Shown: positions 41,321-63,052 of the stretch, piece by piece
How the letters are laid out: every line of letters begins with the position of its first letter
Numbering within the stretch: position 1 is the stretch's first letter
Assembly: GCA_964016885.1 (NCBI GenBank)
Contig: OZ024746.1
Coordinates: 55,490,001 to 55,554,000 of the forward strand
DNA: 64,000 bases
From: Eledone cirrhosa
Lineage: Eukaryota
Direction: 5' to 3'
Made by a program: the position numbers and the translations under genes
Notes under the pieces: generated by a model
Seen by the model: the letters and a program-made list of their open reading frames with translations, nothing else
Databases searched by the model: none
What the model was told of the DNA's origin: nothing

Positions 41321-44300
41321 TCTATCTAAGGCGGGTAAAATTCCCGAGATCCATGGACGAGTTCTCTCCAGCGGTCTCTGTCCCTCATTATCGCTGCCAT
41401 ATCCTGCATCTCCAACAGACCAGTGTCTGTCCTTAGGGCATCAACATATGTTAACCTTGGTCTTCCTCTTCTAGTGTGTCCATGTAGGGGCTCCCAAAGG
41501 AGCACTGAGTGCAATGTCAACTCTGGATGTCGGTGAGCATGTCCAGCCAACCTCAGTCTCCTCTGTGTCACTTTTGAGCTGACTTTTGGGATGCTCCCAT
41601 ACAGCTCTGAGTTTTTCATCCTCAGTGTATACTGATTAATGTTCAGAGCCATCCTCAGCATTCTCGTGTAGCACCCATCCACCATCTGAGTGAGTCTCTT
41701 GGTCAGTGTCCAAGTCTCAGACCCATACAGCAGCACAGACTCCACTACAGCAATGAAGAGGCGGACTTTCAGGTCTCTACGAAGGTCCGACCTCCACACC
41801 GATCTCAAGCTGTGACACGCCGCCCAGGCCTTGCTCTTCCTCCCAACCACATCATCTTCCGTATTCCCAATCTTTGCTCCCAAATACAGGAAGTCCTCAA
41901 CCAATTCCAGCGGCTTCCCGCCTACATTAGTGATCCCCTCTGGCTTCTCAACATTCTCCACCAGATATTTTGTTTTAGTCTCATTCATTCTCAGCCCCAC
42001 ACTCATCGACACAGTCTCAACCTCCCGCATCAAATCCTCTGCCTCCTTCACTGTATTTGTCACCAAAACTATGTCGTCGGCAAATTCAGCATCCGATACC
42101 TTTTTCGCCCCAACTCTCCTGCTCTGAGCCGGTGCTACAGTAAAGCCAGTGTCCTGGTATTTCTCCAGTGCAAGGCGCATACAATAGTCCACTACGATGA
42201 TAAAAAGGTAGGGAGCCAATGTATCTCCCTGGAGCACTCCAGCCAGTATCTCAAAGAACTCTGTCATCCCATCAGGTGTAATGACTTGGGCTTTCGTGTT
42301 GGTGTAGAGCAGTGATATCAGGTCCACTATCCTCTTGGGGATTCCATAAGCCTGTAAGATATTCATCAGGCAGTAACGGTCCACAGAATCAAAGGCCTTC
42401 CTAAAGTCAATGAAAACCATGACCGCAGGAAGGCACTTTGCTCTAGCTCCCTCTAATATCCTCCTCAGCATCAGGATGTGACTGGTGGTTGATCTACCCT
42501 CTCTGAAGCCGTTCTGGTTGTCCCTGAGCTTCTTCTCCATCTCAGGCTGGATCCTGTTAAGAATCATCCTGTTGAGGGTCTTTGCCACAAGTGACGTCAG
42601 TGAGATCCCCCAGTAGTTGTTGGTGTTAGAGAGATCTCCCTTCTTTGGCACTGGGACGATGTTACTGATCCTCCACTGATTCGGGGCAACTCCTTTCTCC
42701 AGTGCCCCGTTACAGAACCCCAGGATGATATCATCAAAATCACACCTCTTCATCACCTCTGATGCCACTCCATCCTCTCCATGAGCCTTGCCCTCCTTGA
42801 TCTTCTTCTTGGCTCTCTGAAGCTCCTCTCTGGTGAAGGGCTCTGTCTCAACATCCAGTTCCTCAAACAGCCGCCTGATCTCCCCACTGCTCTGGGCTAT
42901 GGAGGGTGGCTCTCCTAGTAGGGTCCTAAAATGGTCTAGCCATTTCCTCTTCCTATCCTCGGGCCCCGTTCCCTGGATCTGACTCGAACACCTTTTCTTC
43001 CTCCCTGTGATCTCGTTGATGATCATCCAGCTCTCCTTACATCCAGATCTGTCAACCGCTCTCTCCACACTTCTGATCTTCTCTATCAGTGCCTCCTCTC
43101 TGACCTCAGTGTAAGCGGTACAGAGCTCTTCCCTCATCACCTCCACAGTCTCCATCCTCTCCTCCGTAGGATCAGCATAGAATTGGTCCCTGGCAGCTTT
43201 CAGGTGTTCTCTGGCTGCACACACTTTTGGGTTTGCAGAGCTGACGTGCTTCCCTTTGTTCTCTTTCCTCGGCACCAGGGTTTCACTTGCTTTCGCCACT
43301 GCATTGGTGAAGTGCCCGTACCTCCTCGTCACACTCTCCTCAGTCCATCCAATCTCTCTCTCCTCTGACTCTCCACACAGAGCACTAAACCTGTTTCTCA
43401 CTTCCACTGTGAACCTCTCCTGTAGCTTATCATCTTCCTTGAAAGCTCCCCAGTCATAGATTGTTCTCCGGGGCTGAGCCTTGCTCTTTCTTAAGCTCAC
43501 GCGGACCTCACTCATAACAAGCCGGTGGTCACTACCCAGTGTACTGAAATAGCTGTATGGTTCCGTGTTCAGAACACTATTCCGCCACTTTTTCCTCACC
43601 AGAATGAAATCAATCTGGGACTTGGACAGGTGCATAACTGAGATGTAGGTCCACATCTTCCCCAGATTCTTCCCAAACCTTAGGTTGGTTGCCATCAAGT
43701 TCGCCTCCAGCAGGGTGTCTCTCAGTAGTCTTCCATTTCGGTTGGTGTTGTTATGGAAGTACCAGCAAGGATCTTCACTGCCCTCCTTACTCAGATGTGC
43801 ATTGAAGTCCCCCAAAACAAGCAGGATATTGTGTGCCTGAGTGGTGTTGACAGCCCCACACACCTCCTCATGGAACTCCTCGGCATTCACATCACTGTCC
43901 CCCTCAGTTGGACTATAGGCTGAGATGACTGTCAGTCTTGGGTTTCCATTGAAGGTCACCCTCAACACTCGCGGGGAGATAGGCATTATTTCCCTCACCA
44001 ACAGATTGATTTTTGCACTGAACACAAAACCCACTCCTCCTACTGCAGCATTTGTTGTGTTCTTCACTGCCGATGTAGTGATGAGCTGGCTCTTCCTCCC
44101 GATCATCACACTCCTCACGGGCTCATCGTGTAGAATCCTGTGTTCTTGGATCGCAAGTATCTGTATACCACTCTCCTCGAACAGATGTCCCAACTCCTCT
44201 CTCTTCTCCAGCGTCCGAATAGTCCTCACATTCAAAGTGCCCATTTTGATGGCTCTTCTGCAGGACAAAACTGCATTCTTTATATTTGTCTCAGAGACAG

Positions 44301-44636
44301 CTGATCCATCATCCACTGGCCCTCTCTGTGGCTCTAAGCCAGCAGAGTCATAACGACCAGGCTGCTCCTTGACAGCGTAATTAGGGGCTCTAACCCTAGT
44401 GCTGTTAGATCGACTCTCCATATTTCTTTTCAATGGCTGACAATACCTTACCGGCGCCACTCGAATAAGGTAGTTATTTAACCCATAAATGGAGCCCTAA
44501 CAGGTACTACCACCCCGGGCCAGGGCAGACCTGGGAGTCATGACAACTAAGGGGTAACTCCACATTCCCCACATCTCCTGAACTCCCGAACTGGAGCCTT
44601 GCCACTGGATGTAGTTTAATGTCATACTCAGGACAG
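41321..44636 (-). mobile_element. Full-length RTE-clade LINE with 11-bp TSD and (TAGA)n tail
   Basis: TSD agaccaactta at 41310-41320 and 44637-44647. Single APE-RT ORF with a ~175-nt 5' UTR. Confidence 0.92.
41326..44460 (-). CDS. RTE retrotransposon APE endonuclease-reverse transcriptase polyprotein (1044 aa, uninterrupted)
   Basis: APE motifs TLNVRT, LAIQEH, SAYSPT, LGDFNAH, SQIDFIL, SDH. RT motifs QNGFR, FIDFRKAFDSV, GVLQGDTLAP, FADD, FLYLG. RTE-type C-terminus LLYGSETW, RLRLAGH, GRPR. Confidence 0.95.
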   Translation of the reverse strand: MAPVRYCQPLKRNMESRSNSTRVRAPNYAVKEQPGRYDSAGLEPQRGPVDDGSAVSETNIKNAVLSCRRAIKMGTLNVRTIRTLEKREELGHLFEESGIQILAIQEHRILHDEPVRSVMIGRKSQLITTSAVKNTTNAAVGGVGFVFSAKINLLVREIMPISPRVLRVTFNGNPRLTVISAYSPTEGDSDVNAEEFHEEVCGAVNTTQAHNILLVLGDFNAHLSKEGSEDPCWYFHNNTNRNGRLLRDTLLEANLMATNLRFGKNLGKMWTYISVMHLSKSQIDFILVRKKWRNSVLNTEPYSYFSTLGSDHRLVMSEVRVSLRKSKAQPRRTIYDWGAFKEDDKLQERFTVEVRNRFSALCGESEEREIGWTEESVTRRYGHFTNAVAKASETLVPRKENKGKHVSSANPKVCAAREHLKAARDQFYADPTEERMETVEVMREELCTAYTEVREEALIEKIRSVERAVDRSGCKESWMIINEITGRKKRCSSQIQGTGPEDRKRKWLDHFRTLLGEPPSIAQSSGEIRRLFEELDVETEPFTREELQRAKKKIKEGKAHGEDGVASEVMKRCDFDDIILGFCNGALEKGVAPNQWRISNIVPVPKKGDLSNTNNYWGISLTSLVAKTLNRMILNRIQPEMEKKLRDNQNGFREGRSTTSHILMLRRILEGARAKCLPAVMVFIDFRKAFDSVDRYCLMNILQAYGIPKRIVDLISLLYTNTKAQVITPDGMTEFFEILAGVLQGDTLAPYLFIIVVDYCMRLALEKYQDTGFTVAPAQSRRVGAKKVSDAEFADDIVLVTNTVKEAEDLMREVETVSMSVGLRMNETKTKYLVENVEKPEGITNVGGKPLELVEDFLYLGAKIGNTEDDVVGRKSKAWAACHSLRSVWRSDLRRDLKVRLFIAVVESVLLYGSETWTLTKRLTQMVDGCYTRMLRMALNINQYTLRMKNSELYGSIPKVSSKVTQRRLRLAGHAHRHPELTLHSVLLWEPLHGHTRRGRPRLTYVDALRTDTGLLEMQDMAAIMRDRDRWRELVHGSREFYPP

Positions 44637-47931: not shown

Positions 47932-50900
47932 GAGTGTTTTCTTCTCCTCTTTTAAATTTTCAGAACCAACATGGCCAGTATAAGAGTTGGGTGCGTGAAT
48001 GTACACGGCCTGTGGATGCCCTGGAAACAGGGCAAACACATAAACGACCTCAGGTCGCACAGTATGGATGTAGTAGCCATTTGCGAGTCCAGGATCCACA
48101 GCGAGCGACAGCTAGCCCCATCTTCGATGACTTTGAGATCTACGCATCTCTCTGTCGGCCGGGAGGTGGGGGCGGTGTTGCTGTTTCGCTGCGAAAACAA
48201 CTGGGAATCGTAACACAGACGGTACATCTGGACCCAGAGGGTCGACTGGTGGTCCTAGACGTTGACGGTAGTGAAGGTGGAGCCTTCAGGCTGGTGGCTA
48301 CATATGCCCAATCCGGCACACCGCGGCCAGACATCTTCAAACGTCTAAAGACTTTTCTGGGAACGTCCCGCTCCGTGCTTTTAGTGGGGAACTGGAATGG
48401 AATCCTAGATGCACGTTGGGACTATGTGGGAGCATGTCCCGATAAAGGGGGGTGTAACAGCTTCAAACAGTTAATCGACTGATTTGACCTGGCCGATATA
48501 TATAGACTAGATTTTCAAACTGTGCCACTGTGGACGTTGACTAATCACAGCGGAACATCTAGATCGTACCTAGATAGGGCTCTAGTTAGAAATAATGATG
48601 TTAAGCTGTCCACAAAGGTTCATGGTTGCCTATTCAGATCACAACCTAGTTACCTGCATGGCCAACCTTGATAGAACCCATAGACAAGGACCCGGCTACT
48701 TAAAGCTGAACTTGGCGTTACCGACATGCAAAGCCTACAGTAGACGGATTTGCACTTTAGTTAAACAGCACTTGACAGGGGCCATTGTCAACAACAGATG
48801 GTGGTACTCTCTCAAGGAGGCAGTTAGATTAGAGTCGTTAGTTTTTAGTAAAGAATTAGCGTTAGATAGAAAAAGAACCGAGAAGGAACTGGTAGATAAA
48901 GTAGAAGAGGCAATTAGAAGTGGCAACGTAGCTAGCGTGCTAGCAACGAGAACGGCCTTGGACCAGTTCTTCGACGCAAAGCATGAGGGCTGCGTTATCA
49001 GAAGCAAAATACGTGCTCTGAGAAACGAGGGAGCCAAAGCTGTTAGCTGGGCCCGTGTGACGGAGGCAAAAAGTGGCAACACGTCCACGATTCGGTCTTT
49101 GAAAGACCAAAACGGACGCCTGATACGTGAGCCGAAGCAGATGTGTTTGGCCTTTCAGCGGCACTTTGCTCAACTGTTCGGACAGGGCGGCGCGCCGGGA
49201 GAGGCTATGGATTTCGGTCCACACCTCGACGGCCTACCGCGACTCTCGGACGGTGAGGCAAAGTTCTGCGAAAAGCCGATTTCAGCCGCTGAGATAGGGG
49301 ACGCGCTGAGCCAATGCGGCAAACGCAAATCTCCAGGTCTCGACGGTCTACCCTACGAATTTTACGTAGCAATGCCGGACTTATTCTCCGGTCTACTGCA
49401 ACTGGCAACAGAACGGGAGAATTCCCAATCTGTGACCGGGGGCGTAGTCACACTACTCAGGAAGGACGAGAATAAGGGGGATGACATAGGCAACTTCCGG
49501 CCCATAACTTTGCTAAACACAGAGTTACAGATGTTGGCCAAGGTGTTGGCAAAGAGGCTGGCGCTTGTCGTCGAGAACCTGGTGGGAGAAGCGCAGACAT
49601 GCGCAATCCCGACCAGGTCCATACACGACAACCTCCACCTCATGCGATACATCATAGAGAGGGTAGGATGTAAACCTGGCTTCGATGGGGCGCGGATCAA
49701 CTTGGATCAGTCTAAGGCTTTCGATAGGGTTGACCATCGTTACCTGGATGCGGCGCTCGAGGCGGCAGGCTTCGGACCCTTGTTCAGCGGCTGGATTGCT
49801 GCAATGCACAACAGCAACATCTACTCAAGCGTTAAGGTGAACGGCTACCTCTCGGAGCCGTTCCATATCACGCGATCCATTCGACAGGGATGCCCTCTCT
49901 CCTCCCTTTTGTACGTACTGACTCTGGAGCCACTACTGCGGAAGTTGGACCTATTGCAGGGCATCCCTCTGGAACGGGAACTGCGGAAAGCGTCGCCAGC
50001 CTACGCCGACGACGTGACAGTAATGGTTTCGAGCGCCTCGCAAATCGAGGAAGTCGGCACCTTACTGAAGGAATACGAAAGGTTCACAGGAGCGAAGCTG
50101 AACCGGGACAAGACCATAGGTTTGCAATTCGGATCGTGGAGAGGCAGACCGATGCCTTCCGATGGCGTCGTCGGACTCTGGACGGAAGGACCAGTAAAGC
50201 TGCTCGGGGTCTGATTTGGTCCGGACCTCCAGGTGGAGAAGAACTGGAACGAGGTGTCGGCCAAGGTGTTTGCACTCACCCAGAAGTGGGCCGAGTGCAA
50301 ACTATCATTGAAAGGTCGAGCGGAGGTGGCGAACACTTTTATAGCGTCCGCCATCTACTACCGCTTGACCGTCGTGCCTTGTCCAGCCAAAACGCTCGCC
50401 AGAATTCAGCGCGCGCTCTTCCATTTCCTTTGGAAGAGGCGGGCTCCTTTGGTGAGAATATCCATCTGCTGCCAACACACTTCCATCGGAGGTCTGGGGA
50501 TGCCGTGGCTGACGATGCGCAAACACGCGCTCAGGCTGCGGCATCTCTACGTATTCCTCACCGGACAACCGGTGTGGGCCCCGTTCGTGAGGTTAGCCTT
50601 CCCACGACTCGTCTCGCTGACCGAGCTGCAGTCCTGGTCAAGCAAAGACCGAGGAAAATGGGCGACTGGCACATCGAATGTGCTCAGGGGCTCACAGCCC
50701 TCTGGCAGGCGGACCCGGCGATCAATGGAGACTCCACTTCGTCATTCTATATAGGGTTGATCCGCAGTAAGTGTCACGACGTGCTCGGTGAAACTCTAGG
50801 CGTAGAGGAAGACGAACTGGCCAGTCTGTTCGGTAGGACCTTCCGCCCGGGACCGATGGACAACATCCAAATGTCCCTGGCCTGGCAGTGCTACCGAGGA

Positions 50901-56521: not shown

Positions 56522-56525
<4 letters not shown>
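56411..56525. mobile_element. Diverged copy of the 4203/23075 HHR-half family
   Basis: tgtggtaaggaaccag terminus plus gtccagaattagccgtcgaaacgg..gccgtc. Confidence 0.7.
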
Positions 56526-56562
<37 letters not shown>

Positions 56563-56567
<5 letters not shown>

Positions 56568-57556
56568 AATACACAGTATGCTTAATTAAAAGCATTTTGG
56601 AGACCTTATGCTATTGTTTTAGAGTAGTGACAGACTCACTTACTTACTTTAATTTCAGCAAACAGGGGGAGATAAAGCTGACCAGGTTTTGTTTCGCATT
56701 TATTGATGCTTATCAACGCCAGCTACTCCTCCTGTCTGCTGAAATCATGGATGTTTGGTTCTTATATAATTCTAGTAAATAATCAGGAACTGATTATACA
56801 GAACCGTTGCCGGTCAAGCAGAAATTGAAAATTAGAATAGGTGCTCTGAAATAGCTATATAAATATGAATGTATATATAGTGTATTTTGCAATACACTGT
56901 ATGTTTCTAAGACCTTATGCTATTGTTTTAGGGTAGTGACATACTCACTTACTTTAATTTCAGCAAACAGGGGGAGATAAAGCTTACAAGGCCTTGTTTC
57001 GCATTTATTGATGCTTATCCAAGCCAACTACTCCTCCTGTCTGCTGAAATCATGGATGTTTGGTTCTTATAGAATTCTAGTAAATAATCAGGAACTGATT
57101 ATACAGAGCGGTTGCCGGTCAAGCAGAAATTGAAAATTAGAATTGGTGCTCTGAAATAGCTATATAAATATGAATGTATATATAGTGTATTTTGCAATAC
57201 ACTGTATGCTTAATTAAAAGCTATTTCAGAGCACCAATTCTAATTTTCAATTTCTGCTTGACCGGCAACCGCTCTGTATAATCAGTTCCTGATTATTTAC
57301 TAGAATTCTATAAGAACCAAACATCCATGGTTTCAGCAGACAGGAGGAGTAGTTGGCTTTGATAAGCATCAATAAATGCGAAACAAGAGCCTGTCAGCTT
57401 TATCTCCCCCTGTTTGCTGAAATTAAAGTAAGTGAGTCTGTCACTACTTTAAAACAATAGCAAAAGGTCTTCGAAATTCTTTTAATTAAGCATACATTGT
57501 ATTGCAAAATACACTATATATACATTCATATATATATAGCTATTTCAGAGCACCAA

Positions 57557-57563
<7 letters not shown>
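56563..57563. mobile_element. Retrozyme/pLTR-like array: two tandem ~310-bp HHR units (minus) plus one inverted unit (plus), within TA arrays
   Basis: gaccttatgctattg recurs at 56602 and 56911. 57219-57563 is the reverse complement. HHRs at 56675-56720(-), 56980-57025(-) and 57355-57400(+). Confidence 0.85.
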
Positions 57564-60241: not shown

Positions 60242-60270
<29 letters not shown>

Positions 60271-60272
<2 letters not shown>

Positions 60273-60668
60273 CAAAAAACAAACCAAAGAAGCCTTCAAT
60301 ACATCAAAAGTCTTTATTAGCCAACAATGTTTCGTCCTATTAAGGACTCATCGGGGCAAGTAAAGCTACCAGAAGCACTATCGGCCAATACAAGCGAAAA
60401 ACTCAGAAGAATATGGAGTATACATCTATAGTTTTTGGCTTGTATTGGCCGATAGTGCTTCTTGTAGCTTTACTTGCCCTGATGACTCCTTAATAGGACG
60501 ACACATTGATGGCTAATAAAGACTTTTGATGTATTGAAGGCTTCTTTGGTTTATTTTTTATAATTCTTCGGCTCTGTTTAATTACATTGAGCTATATCTT
60601 ATACTGTCATTTCTATAATATGAAGAGGGTGTTTAACTCCAACACACTCTAGTATTTTAATTCTTATA
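60271..60668. mobile_element. Head-to-head inverted duplication (~133-bp arms) of an HHR-bearing unit
   Basis: 60271-60403 versus 60430-60562. HHR at 60320-60357(-) and 60476-60513(+), followed by AATAAA. Confidence 0.85.
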
Positions 60669-60790: not shown

Positions 60791-61352
60791 CAAATTATAA
60801 ACGTAAACGGAGAAATCGAAAAAGATGAGTGTTGCCGTACATGTGAGTCGAACCCACATCTTTGGTTATCCAGACCACTGTGCTACCATTAAACCAATAC
60901 ACATCCCATCTCCTTCCTTGGAATTAGAAGCTATGAACTTAGCAAGTGAATGATAAACAAGCAAATTATAAACGTAAACATGTAAGTATATTTTTGAAAC
61001 GTTGCGTGAGTTTGAAATTAGAATTTAAAAATTATAAGCTTTCACCGTATTTTAGACTAAAGATATTTTTAGCCTCGGAGAAATGGAAAAAGATGAGTGT
61101 TGCCGTACATGGGAGTCGAACCCACATCTTTGGTTATCCAGACCACTGTGCTACCATTACATCAATACACATCCCATCTCCTTCCATTTGAATTAGAAGC
61201 TATGAACTTAGCAAGTTCACTTGTTCATAGCTTCTAATTCGATTGGAAGGAGATGGGATGTGTATTGGTGTAATGGTAGCACAGTGGTGTGGATAACCAA
61301 AGTTGTGGATTCGACTTCCATGTACGGCAACACTCATCTTTTTCCATTTCCA
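60791..61352. mobile_element. Tandem-plus-inverted array of a tRNA-like unit (cloverleafs at 60833-60903(-), 61101-61171(-), 61259-61329(+))
   Basis: D arm GTGT(aatggta)GCAC, T arm GTGGG(ttcgact)CCCAT, downstream TTTTT. Fold-back centre at ~61208-61222. Confidence 0.8.
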
Positions 61353-61659: not shown

Positions 61660-63052
61660 GATTGGTATTTTTATTTTGGATTATTTAAATCTGAAAATTC
61701 CTCAACTTCACGGTTGAATTTATCGTGAAGATGGCCTTTTTACTGTCTTAAACTGCAATTTAGTTAACCTTAATATTATTAAGAACAATATACGTGACAT
61801 ATTTGAGCACCATAACCTTAAAATTGAATTTGATAACAACGTCAAACTAGCTAACCTCTTGGATATATCCCTTAATCTTGACACTGGGTCTATATTACTC
61901 TTACCATAAAAACAATGAGAATCTAAATTATGTTAATTTTAAATCTAACCACCCCACTAACGTTAAAAATGCTATAGTCAGTAATATTGAAAAAAGAATC
62001 TCAAATCTATCCTCTAATAAAGATATATTCTACGCTAATACCAATTACTATAATAATGCGCTTTCCAAAGTGATAAAATTAAATACAGTAAGGAAACCAA
62101 TCATCGGAGGTCTTATAGTAAAATAGTTAATTATGAACATTCCAATAACTTAAATAAAAGACCTAGATACAAAAATATAATTTGGTATAATGCTCCTTTT
62201 TATCTATCTATTAATAATAATATTGCTAAACTATTCTTTAGGGCCTTAGATAAATGCTTCCCTCCCTCACATATCTATAGTAAAATCTTTGACAAACATA
62301 CAATCAAATTTTCTTTTTCCACCACTTCCAGCATTTCTAACATTATCTCTAAACACAACAATAAAATATTAAATAATAAATTACATCCTTCCAACACCGA
62401 GCGTCATAATAATAGCAACAGTAATCTCGACGTCATTGTTAACTCTAGGCTTGATTCTGTAAATTTAAATACGACGTCAAACGTAACTTCGATGAATGTT
62501 CACAATACCAATCTAAATCAGGAAACTATAGTTCCTATCGTAAATAACTTCTCCAATCCAATTCCTTCTATAAATAATACTAGGTCACTTGTTAATAACT
62601 CTGTTAATTTCTCTAATCGTAATTGTAATTGCCCTGTTAGAAATAAATGTCCTCTTAATAACCAATGTCTTGATAAAAACTTAGTGTATGAATGTAAGGT
62701 TATAACTGATACTAATTATTTTACCTATTTCGGTTCCACTTCCACTTCCTGTAAAGCTAGATTTTATAATAAAAAATCGTATTTTAAATACCAACTTAAA
62801 AGAATCAACACGGCACTCTCGGAACTCATATGGTCCTTAAAAGGCAAAAATATTAACTGTAACATCCCTTGGAGGAAGGTTTGCACCGCCTTTCTTTACA
62901 TGAATTCTTCCTTATCCAGAACATGTAATCTCTGTCTAGCCGAGAAATTTACCATTATATCTAATATCAATTATATAAAAAATAGACGCACGGATTTATT
63001 TTCGCTCTGCTTGCATAAATCCCATAGAACATTCCATAAAGTATACAGCTAA
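61660..63052 (+). pseudogene. Penelope-like element RT C-terminus plus GIY-YIG endonuclease (Naiad-like), decayed and 5'-truncated
   Basis: YREDG (RT DD motif), SNHP, IIWYNAPF. ORF 62492-63052 has CNC..CPL..C, VYECKV..YFGST (GIY-YIG), LSELIWSLK, CNLCLAEK, CLH. Confidence 0.85.

What the first reader, a model, noticed from the sequence alone, without database searches (positions are those of the whole stretch)
56563..57563. ~310-bp tandem HHR array whose core is the C3U/G8A covariant (UUGAUAA)
Seen: consensus of three copies is ggct-TTGATAA-GCAT(caataa)ATGC-GAAAC-AAGGCCTT-GT[C/A]-agct. All three have U3 and A8 in place of C3 and G8 (copy 2 also has U4G). Copy 2 has a perfect palindromic stem III (ACAAGGCCTTGT). 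Established: positions 3 and 8 form a Watson-Crick pair in the active hammerhead, and U3-A8 preserves it. Inference: this is a natural covariant ribozyme family that CUGANGA-based searches would miss, not simple decay.
Basis: partly seen in the sequence, partly recalled or inferred. Interest (0 to 1): 0.75.

Follow-up and report, generated by a model that had tools for sequence, protein, structure and literature searches.

The report
Retrozyme family with swapped hammerhead pair
This is one worn copy of a common 320-base, protein-free jumping repeat whose predicted self-cutting RNA carries a known base-pair swap; the swap is inherited across the family, close relatives keep the standard pair, and the repeat is likely copied by Penelope-type jumping genes.

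Summary
The three hammerheads are real and all read U3/A8, but the locus is two head-to-tail units on the minus strand plus one inverted unit, between (TA)n tracts. It is one insertion of a dispersed ~320-bp non-coding family. U3-A8 is inherited, not decay: 527 exact U3-A8 matches in the genome against 0 with C3-G8 on the same stem II. Four U3-A8 subfamilies differ at 65 of 265 positions, with compensatory changes in all stems and none in the core. Homologous subfamilies (70-88% identical) keep C3-G8; a tree needs one switch (support 85/96). Insertions end at two fixed points, one per arm, the Penelope 'tail' footprint. No ORF; carrier not identified. Cleavage and expression are untested, and the hammerhead fold is not the predicted lowest-energy fold. 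Natural U3-A8 hammerheads are published (Perreault 2011; Cervera 2014, about 1,300 copies, also noted as missed by descriptors), as are animal retrozymes and their Penelope link. The scan has reported U3-A8 retrozymes with this footprint before, here and in other genomes. Verdict: new member of a known kind; its value is a natural C3-G8/U3-A8 pair for testing.

The parts
56524..56562 (.). (TA)n tract, left flank, presumed target
56563..57221 (-). Left arm: about 2.1 head-to-tail units, 3' end pointing left; ends about 30 nt short of the family's usual short end
56651..56746 (-). Hammerhead copy 1 (U3 56716, A8 56711, C17 56680); first stem I pair mismatched, stem III broken
56956..57051 (-). 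Hammerhead copy 2 (U3 57021, G4 57020, A8 57016, A17 56985); palindromic stem III
57219..57221 (.). Head-to-head junction of the two arms, 3-nt overlap (AGC)
   Evidence: read
57219..57563 (+). Right arm: about 1.07 units, inverted relative to the left arm, ending at the family's long end (+168/169 from the cut site)
57329..57424 (+). Hammerhead copy 3 (U3 57359, A8 57364, C17 57395; predicted cut 57395/57396); altered stem III
57539..57563 (+). About 25-nt 'tail' between the family's two fixed 3' ends
   Evidence: tail concept from PMC11167929 and PMC8557442
57564..57614 (.). (TA)n tract, right flank, followed by (GA)n

Best explanation
This locus is one decayed, inverted-plus-tandem insertion of a dispersed ~320-bp non-coding repeat family whose type I hammerhead motif has U3-A8 in place of C3-G8 as an inherited state, likely fixed once and likely still self-cleaving in the master copies, and likely copied by a Penelope-like element. 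Shown: family, copy structure, compensatory stems, unchanged core, C3-G8 sister subfamilies, two fixed 3' ends in (TA)n, no ORF. Inferred: tandem transcripts are cut slowly or as dimers through the palindromic stem III and may close into circles; a Penelope RT/GIY-YIG protein cuts AT-rich DNA and primes on both strands at two internal sites about 145 and 169 nt after the cut site, reading past the cut site on a circle or uncleaved multimer, which yields more-than-unit, tail-out inverted insertions. The swap probably passed through a U3-G8 wobble (both steps are transitions towards A+T) and was kept because the 3-8 pair is needed.
For: Genome counts: 527 exact U3-A8 matches; 0 C3-G8 with the same stem II, loop fixed or free against 798 matches of the relaxed pattern (first 100: 97 U3-A8, 2 C3-A8, 1 U3-G8). 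Core left free: 98 of the first 100 of 310 matches have U3 and A8. Other stem II: 1537 matches; first 100: 90 U3-A8, 8 C3-G8, 1 C3-A8, 1 U3-G8. The C3-G8 copies align over the whole unit at about 74-84%. 104 U3-A8-lineage copies: 95.9% of cells paired, 209 cells with two-sided change against at most 38 in slid controls; two-sided changes in stem I (37, 11 rows), stem II (38, 37), stem III (13), distal stem (35, 35). Four U3-A8 subfamilies vary at 65 of 265 positions, at 0 of 11 core positions; adding the C3-G8 subfamily changes only positions 3 and 8. Tree with 3 and 8 masked: one change, U3-A8 side 85/96, the most divergent copies are C3-G8. Ends: 52 of 69 tail-out inverted pairs have one short and one long end, 4 short-short, 1 long-long, 12 other, as described for Penelope tails. 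73 of 96 loci have an arm over 330 nt; no shared non-unit 5' flank. U3-A8 is reported active in vitro (PMC3088659 citing earlier work).
Against: No cleavage or expression data. The hammerhead fold lies a median 7.0 kcal/mol above the predicted minimum in the window's subfamily, 2.6-4.6 in the other U3-A8 subfamilies, 1.2 in the C3-G8 subfamily; the minimum traps U3-G5 against stem III. An unchanged core has P about 0.045 by chance, which is weak. Covarying cells are a few inherited events counted many times. 5' junctions are not clearly enriched at the cut site (27 against 18 and 4 in controls). A Penelope family here spread with A13C in 29 of 30 near-copies, the anole element does not need its hammerhead in vitro, and 8 of 9 Xenopus retrozyme dimers did not cleave. 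Tree support is not starred. No autonomous partner with matching ends found. End positions near +149 are blurred by BLAST running into TA tracts, and at least two loci were counted twice.
Confidence: 0.8

Rival explanations
1. The element is the same Penelope-borne repeat, but after the swap its hammerhead became nearly or wholly inactive; the hairpin is kept for folding or carrier recognition, and the core survived by chance in a short history.
For: Competing fold 2.6-7.0 kcal/mol below the hammerhead fold in U3-A8 subfamilies; chance of an unchanged core about 0.045; arms commonly read through the cut site; A13C Penelope subfamily in this genome; hammerhead not needed for anole Penelope insertion in vitro.
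Against: Two-sided changes in the short catalytic stems I, II and III, which the competing fold does not need in stems I-proximal and III; the only core changes in five subfamilies are the paired 3 and 8; no subfamily with a mismatched 3-8 state among 161 full-span copies, only single copies.
Confidence: 0.13
2. The unit is the pseudo-LTR of an autonomous Penelope-like element, and the short copies are 5'-truncated ends rather than a separate non-autonomous family.
For: Same tail and inversion footprint; an autonomous element with a U3-A8 minimal hammerhead and the same stem II exists in the genome.
Against: Upstream of a unit lies more unit, period 320 bp; an array of about 28 units over 9 kb on C14; no shared non-unit 5' flank in 96 loci; no similarity to that autonomous element's 3' region beyond TA repeats in the top hits. 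By contrast the autonomous family showed its ORF within 1.5 kb in many of 30 loci.
Confidence: 0.05
3. U3 and A8 are local or A+T-biased decay of a canonical core.
For: C to T and G to A are common transitions; canonical relatives exist; the window copies carry other damage.
Against: 527 against 0; 0 of 798 canonical; single-change states are 2-3 in 100; one change on the tree.
Confidence: 0.02

Closest known systems
Animal non-LTR retrozymes (Cervera and de la Pena 2020, PMC7229834, parts 2-3 of 6 and passages read; Li et al. 2026, bioRxiv 10.64898/2026.07.22.740005, parts 1-3 of 5 read)
   Same: Non-coding repeat of 170-400 nt, low GC (34%), type I hammerhead in each unit, monomers to long arrays, self-paired circle predicted (z -5.0), co-occurs with Penelope-like elements.
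   Different: U3-A8 core (term not found in either main text); tail-out inverted insertions with two fixed ends in (TA)n ('tail' 0 hits in Li et al., 'inverted' 0 in Cervera 2020); no circular RNA or cleavage shown here; no homologous pseudo-LTR found.
U3-A8 minimal hammerheads of Schistosoma mansoni Cercyon Penelope-like elements (Cervera and de la Pena 2014, PMC4209133, parts 1-2 of 4 read)
   Same: Same covariant, family-wide (about 1,300 hits), missed by the canonical descriptor, Penelope context, palindromic stem III.
   Different: Those are minimal motifs in pseudo-LTRs of coding elements; here an extended stem I with an internal loop, a 4-bp stem III and a non-coding 320-bp unit.
Natural U3-A8 hammerheads (Perreault et al. 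2011, PMC3088659, section 8 and passages read; supplements searched, no rate found)
   Same: C3-G8 covaries to U3-A8 in several natural examples; stated to have been shown active in vitro earlier.
   Different: Scattered examples, not a high-copy retroelement family with near relatives of both states.
Poseidon element of Anolis carolinensis (Frangione et al. 2024, PMC11167929, abstract and passages read) and EN+ Penelope insertion structure (Craig et al. 2021, PMC8557442, passages read)
   Same: Two internal start sites of reverse transcription, tail at one end, inverted 5'-truncated arm, AT-rich or (TA)n targets.
   Different: Autonomous and coding; tail 30-40 nt against about 20-25 nt here.

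Membership tests
Type I hammerhead ribozyme | Core boxes (3-9, 12-14, A15.1-U16.1, H17) with a Watson-Crick 3-8 pair | tested here: met
   U3-A8 in 100 of 104 aligned rows, A15.1-U16.1 in 103; window copy 2 fails at U4
Type I hammerhead ribozyme | Three helices, stem I open, G10.1-C11.1 | tested here: met
   95.5-96.5% of cells paired per helix, two-sided changes in each
Type I hammerhead ribozyme | Hammerhead fold is the favoured fold of a monomer | tested here: inconclusive
   2.6-7.0 kcal/mol above the predicted minimum; tertiary contacts and dimers are not modelled
Type I hammerhead ribozyme | Self-cleavage at H17 | not testable with these tools
   Indirect junction test inconclusive
Animal non-LTR retrozyme | 150-450-bp non-coding unit with a type I hammerhead, in tandem and dispersed copies | tested here: met
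   Period 320, array on C14, over 2,000 pattern matches, no shared coding flank
Animal non-LTR retrozyme | Highly self-paired monomer circle | tested here: met
   One natural monomer: -72.9 kcal/mol, 61% paired, z -5.0 against 60 shuffles; prediction only
Animal non-LTR retrozyme | Expressed as linear and circular RNA | not testable with these tools
   No RNA holder listed
Penelope-mobilised element | Two fixed 3' ends with a tail at one end; inverted 5'-truncated arm; microsatellite target | tested here: met
   52 of 69 inverted pairs short+long; (TA)n flanks
Autonomous Penelope-like element | ORF with RT and GIY-YIG domains between pseudo-LTRs | tested here: not met
   No shared non-unit 5' flank in 96 loci; unit follows unit
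Rfam Hammerhead_HH9 (RF02275) | Gathering score 52 bits | tested here: not met
   22.6 and 20.4 bits

The most novel reading that the evidence does not exclude
The C3-G8 to U3-A8 switch was adaptive: it gave a slower, dimer-dependent ribozyme that leaves more circles and multimers intact as templates for Penelope reverse transcriptase, and the U3-A8 lineage then expanded into thousands of copies. The family would be a natural experiment linking ribozyme rate to retroelement success, with both states alive in one genome.
Probability: 0.15. Interest if true: 0.55.

Novelty: new member of a known kind. Interest (0 to 1): 0.3.

Why it matters
The variant and the element class are known, so the finding changes no concept. 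It has two practical uses. First, subfamilies with C3-G8 and with U3-A8 that are 81-88% identical give a natural matched set to measure what the swap costs and whether retrozymes need fast cleavage. Second, the two-ended tail footprint ties a retrozyme to Penelope machinery by insertion anatomy, where the papers read argue from co-occurrence and homology. It also shows that canonical-core searches would miss most pattern-matched copies of these subfamilies.

Tried and rejected
Cut-site footprint: copies whose 5' junction lies exactly after C17 gave 27 matches at 23 loci, 4 of them internal deletions, 6 with both arms starting there; a control 16 nt downstream gave 18 matches, none symmetric; a narrower control in stem III gave 4 matches at 3 loci, 1 symmetric. 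The AGCT palindrome at the cut site can explain the symmetric cases: inconclusive. Idea that U3-A8 itself causes the competing fold: swapping the pair in silico moved the gap down in two U3-A8 subfamilies and up in two: rejected. Idea that the autonomous U3-A8 Penelope family is the parent: only TA-repeat similarity in the top 8 hits: not supported. First subfamily sorting by motifs was faulty and was replaced by clustering. The C17 coordinates printed were wrong and were re-read. Rfam microRNA hits reflect the inverted junction and microsatellites. Przybilski and Hammann 2007, Nelson and Uhlenbeck 2008 and Luense et al. 2017 were not held, so no measured rate for U3-A8 was seen. Searches for a prior description of this family found none; Dfam and Repbase were not available, and bioRxiv supplements of Li et al. 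could not be seen. Sequence look-up in earlier findings was empty.

Full report
Observation. The window comes from a 3.0-Gb assembly rich in (TA)n, evidently an animal (inference). Between two TA tracts, 56563-57563 holds three hammerhead motifs with U3 and A8. Copies 1 and 2 are head-to-tail on the minus strand, 305 bp apart; copy 3 is on the plus strand, so the locus is a 2.1-unit arm and a 1.07-unit arm joined head to head at a 3-nt overlap. The copies are about 90-93% identical. Copy 2 has U4G, A17 and the palindromic stem III; copy 1 has a mismatched first stem I pair and a broken stem III; copy 3 has an altered stem III. Each 96-nt copy folds far better than shuffles. Rfam HH9 gives 22.6 and 20.4 bits, below its gathering score of 52.

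Family. A DNA search gave 1,755 first-look candidates, of which 40 were scored, including an array of about 28 units on C14. The exact U3-A8 26-mer occurs 527 times, the C3-G8 version 0 times. With the seven core bases free, 98 of the first 100 of 310 matches have U3 and A8, one U3-G8, one C3-A8. With loop II free there are 798 matches, none C3-G8; 12 of the first 100 belong to other, minimal-hammerhead families. With the alternative stem II there are 1,537 matches; the first 100 are 90 U3-A8, 8 C3-G8, 1 C3-A8 and 1 U3-G8. These are exact-pattern counts, not copy numbers.

Structure under selection. In 104 copies (of 116 distinct ones extracted; 12 with truncations, chimeric ends or large indels were left out), 95.9% of cells pair, and 209 cells show a two-sided change, against at most 38 when partners are slid. 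Changes fall in stem I, stem II, stem III and the distal stem. They are a handful of events inherited by subfamilies, not 209 events. Among 161 full-span copies (not a random sample) the 3-8 states are 144 U-A, 11 C-G, 4 C-A, 1 U-G, 1 gap. Clustering gives four U3-A8 subfamilies (76, 30, 27, 9 copies) and one C3-G8 subfamily (8), 80-94% identical. The four differ at 65 of 265 positions and at none of 11 core positions (chance about 0.045); adding the fifth changes only positions 3 and 8. Four more divergent copies (70-76% identical to the U3-A8 subfamilies, 79-82% to the C3-G8 one) also carry G8 and, where not gapped, C3. A tree of 45 of the 161 copies (at most 7 per cluster, one deleted copy dropped, positions 3 and 8 masked) needs one change; the U3-A8 side has support 85/96, not starred. 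With the divergent C3-G8 copies as outgroup, U3-A8 is derived. The abundance of the older C3-G8 subfamilies was not counted.

Mobility. 3' ends cluster at about +139-149 and +169-172 after the predicted cut and run into (TA)n; 5' ends are scattered around the unit. Of 69 tail-out inverted pairs, 52 have one short and one long end, 4 two short, 1 two long, 12 have an end elsewhere; about half would be mixed if ends were independent. BLAST runs into TA tracts near +149 (the window's own left end is really about 30 nt shorter), and L054/L158 and L010/L022 are the same or duplicated loci. Frangione et al. (PMC11167929, passages) show that a Penelope protein cuts and extends both strands and starts at two internal RNA sites that define the tail; Craig et al. 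(PMC8557442, passages) describe the inverted arm, one-ended tail and microsatellite bias. 73 of 96 loci have an arm over 330 nt (loci were chosen for holding a hammerhead, which biases this), and no non-unit 5' flank is shared: the template is a circle or multimer of the unit, and the element is non-autonomous. One monomer folds as a self-paired circle (z -5.0). An autonomous element with RT and GIY-YIG domains (RVT_1 below its curated cut-off, GIY-YIG above) carries a U3-A8 minimal hammerhead with the same stem II, but shares no other sequence with the unit in the top hits, so the carrier is unidentified.

Activity. Untested. Against fast monomer cleavage: the hammerhead fold lies a median 7.0 kcal/mol above the predicted minimum in the window's subfamily (60 copies), 4.6, 2.6 and 4.5 in the others, 1.2 in the C3-G8 subfamily (only copies that fit the motif were scored). 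The stem III palindrome does not fold alone but forms a -19.5 kcal/mol duplex, which fits cleavage as a dimer (inference, as in PMC7229834 and PMC4209133). A genomic test for 5' junctions at the cut site was inconclusive. The nearby autonomous family has GCAA for GAAA in 29 of 30 near-copies, and 8 of 9 Xenopus retrozyme dimers did not cleave in vitro, so spread does not prove catalysis. No RNA run was listed.

Comparison with what is known. The C3-G8 pair of the active fold is established (PMC3884650, passages). Natural U3-A8 was reported in 2011 and said to be active in vitro from earlier work (PMC3088659). A family-wide U3-A8 variant of about 1,300 copies in Schistosoma Penelope elements, missed by the standard descriptor, was reported in 2014 (PMC4209133). 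Non-LTR retrozymes, including a 350-390-bp mussel family, were defined in 2020 and linked to Penelope elements there and in 2026. It works like a non-LTR retrozyme and meets the sequence-level features; RNA circles and cleavage could not be tested. Seven paper searches found no description of this family. Earlier notes of this scan report U3-A8 retrozymes with the Penelope footprint in this genome and others; I did not check whether any is the same family.

Verdict. Interest 0.3, owed to the matched C3-G8 and U3-A8 subfamilies and the clear insertion footprint.

Noticed in passing
L071-L100, L180-L188 (own genome): Autonomous Penelope-like family (RT, Cys-rich linker, GIY-YIG) with a U3-A8 minimal hammerhead; 29 of 30 near-copies have GCAA in place of GAAA (A13C), which likely weakens or stops cleavage, yet the subfamily spread.
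   Followed up: partly
L047, L054, L055, L185: A further minimal-hammerhead family with a U3-A8 core, different stems I and II.
   Followed up: no
L077, L136, L137, L017: Older, more divergent C3-G8 subfamilies of the same 320-bp unit, met by chance in flanks; abundance not counted.
   Followed up: partly
window 60256-60570: Inverted pair of an unrelated hammerhead-like repeat with C3/G8 cores, both copies damaged; Rfam HH9 24.2 bits at 60300-60370 minus.
   Followed up: partly
window 14510/14661 and 34754/34909: Two more inverted pairs of C3-G8 minimal hammerheads from other families.
   Followed up: no
window 60835-61326: Three tRNA-like matches (27.7-33.4 bits) in a partly inverted arrangement, probably a tRNA-derived SINE.
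   Followed up: no
window 41329-44496 (-), 48586-50211 (+), 62057-63049 (+): Open frames of 1056, 542 and 331 aa that look by eye like LINE endonuclease/RT proteins and a Penelope C-terminal part; not searched.
   Followed up: no
G000 C14:23499109-23508153 (L030): Array of about 28 head-to-tail units, period 320-321 bp, with an inverted fragment at its 5' end.
   Followed up: partly
L148/L149; L131, L137, L151, L154, L156: Insertions in which both arms start exactly after the predicted cut site; in L148/L149 they are joined by a T/A homopolymer filler.
   Followed up: partly
L016:1881-1978 (-): A 5'-truncated unit joined directly to CCCTAA telomere-like repeats.
   Followed up: no
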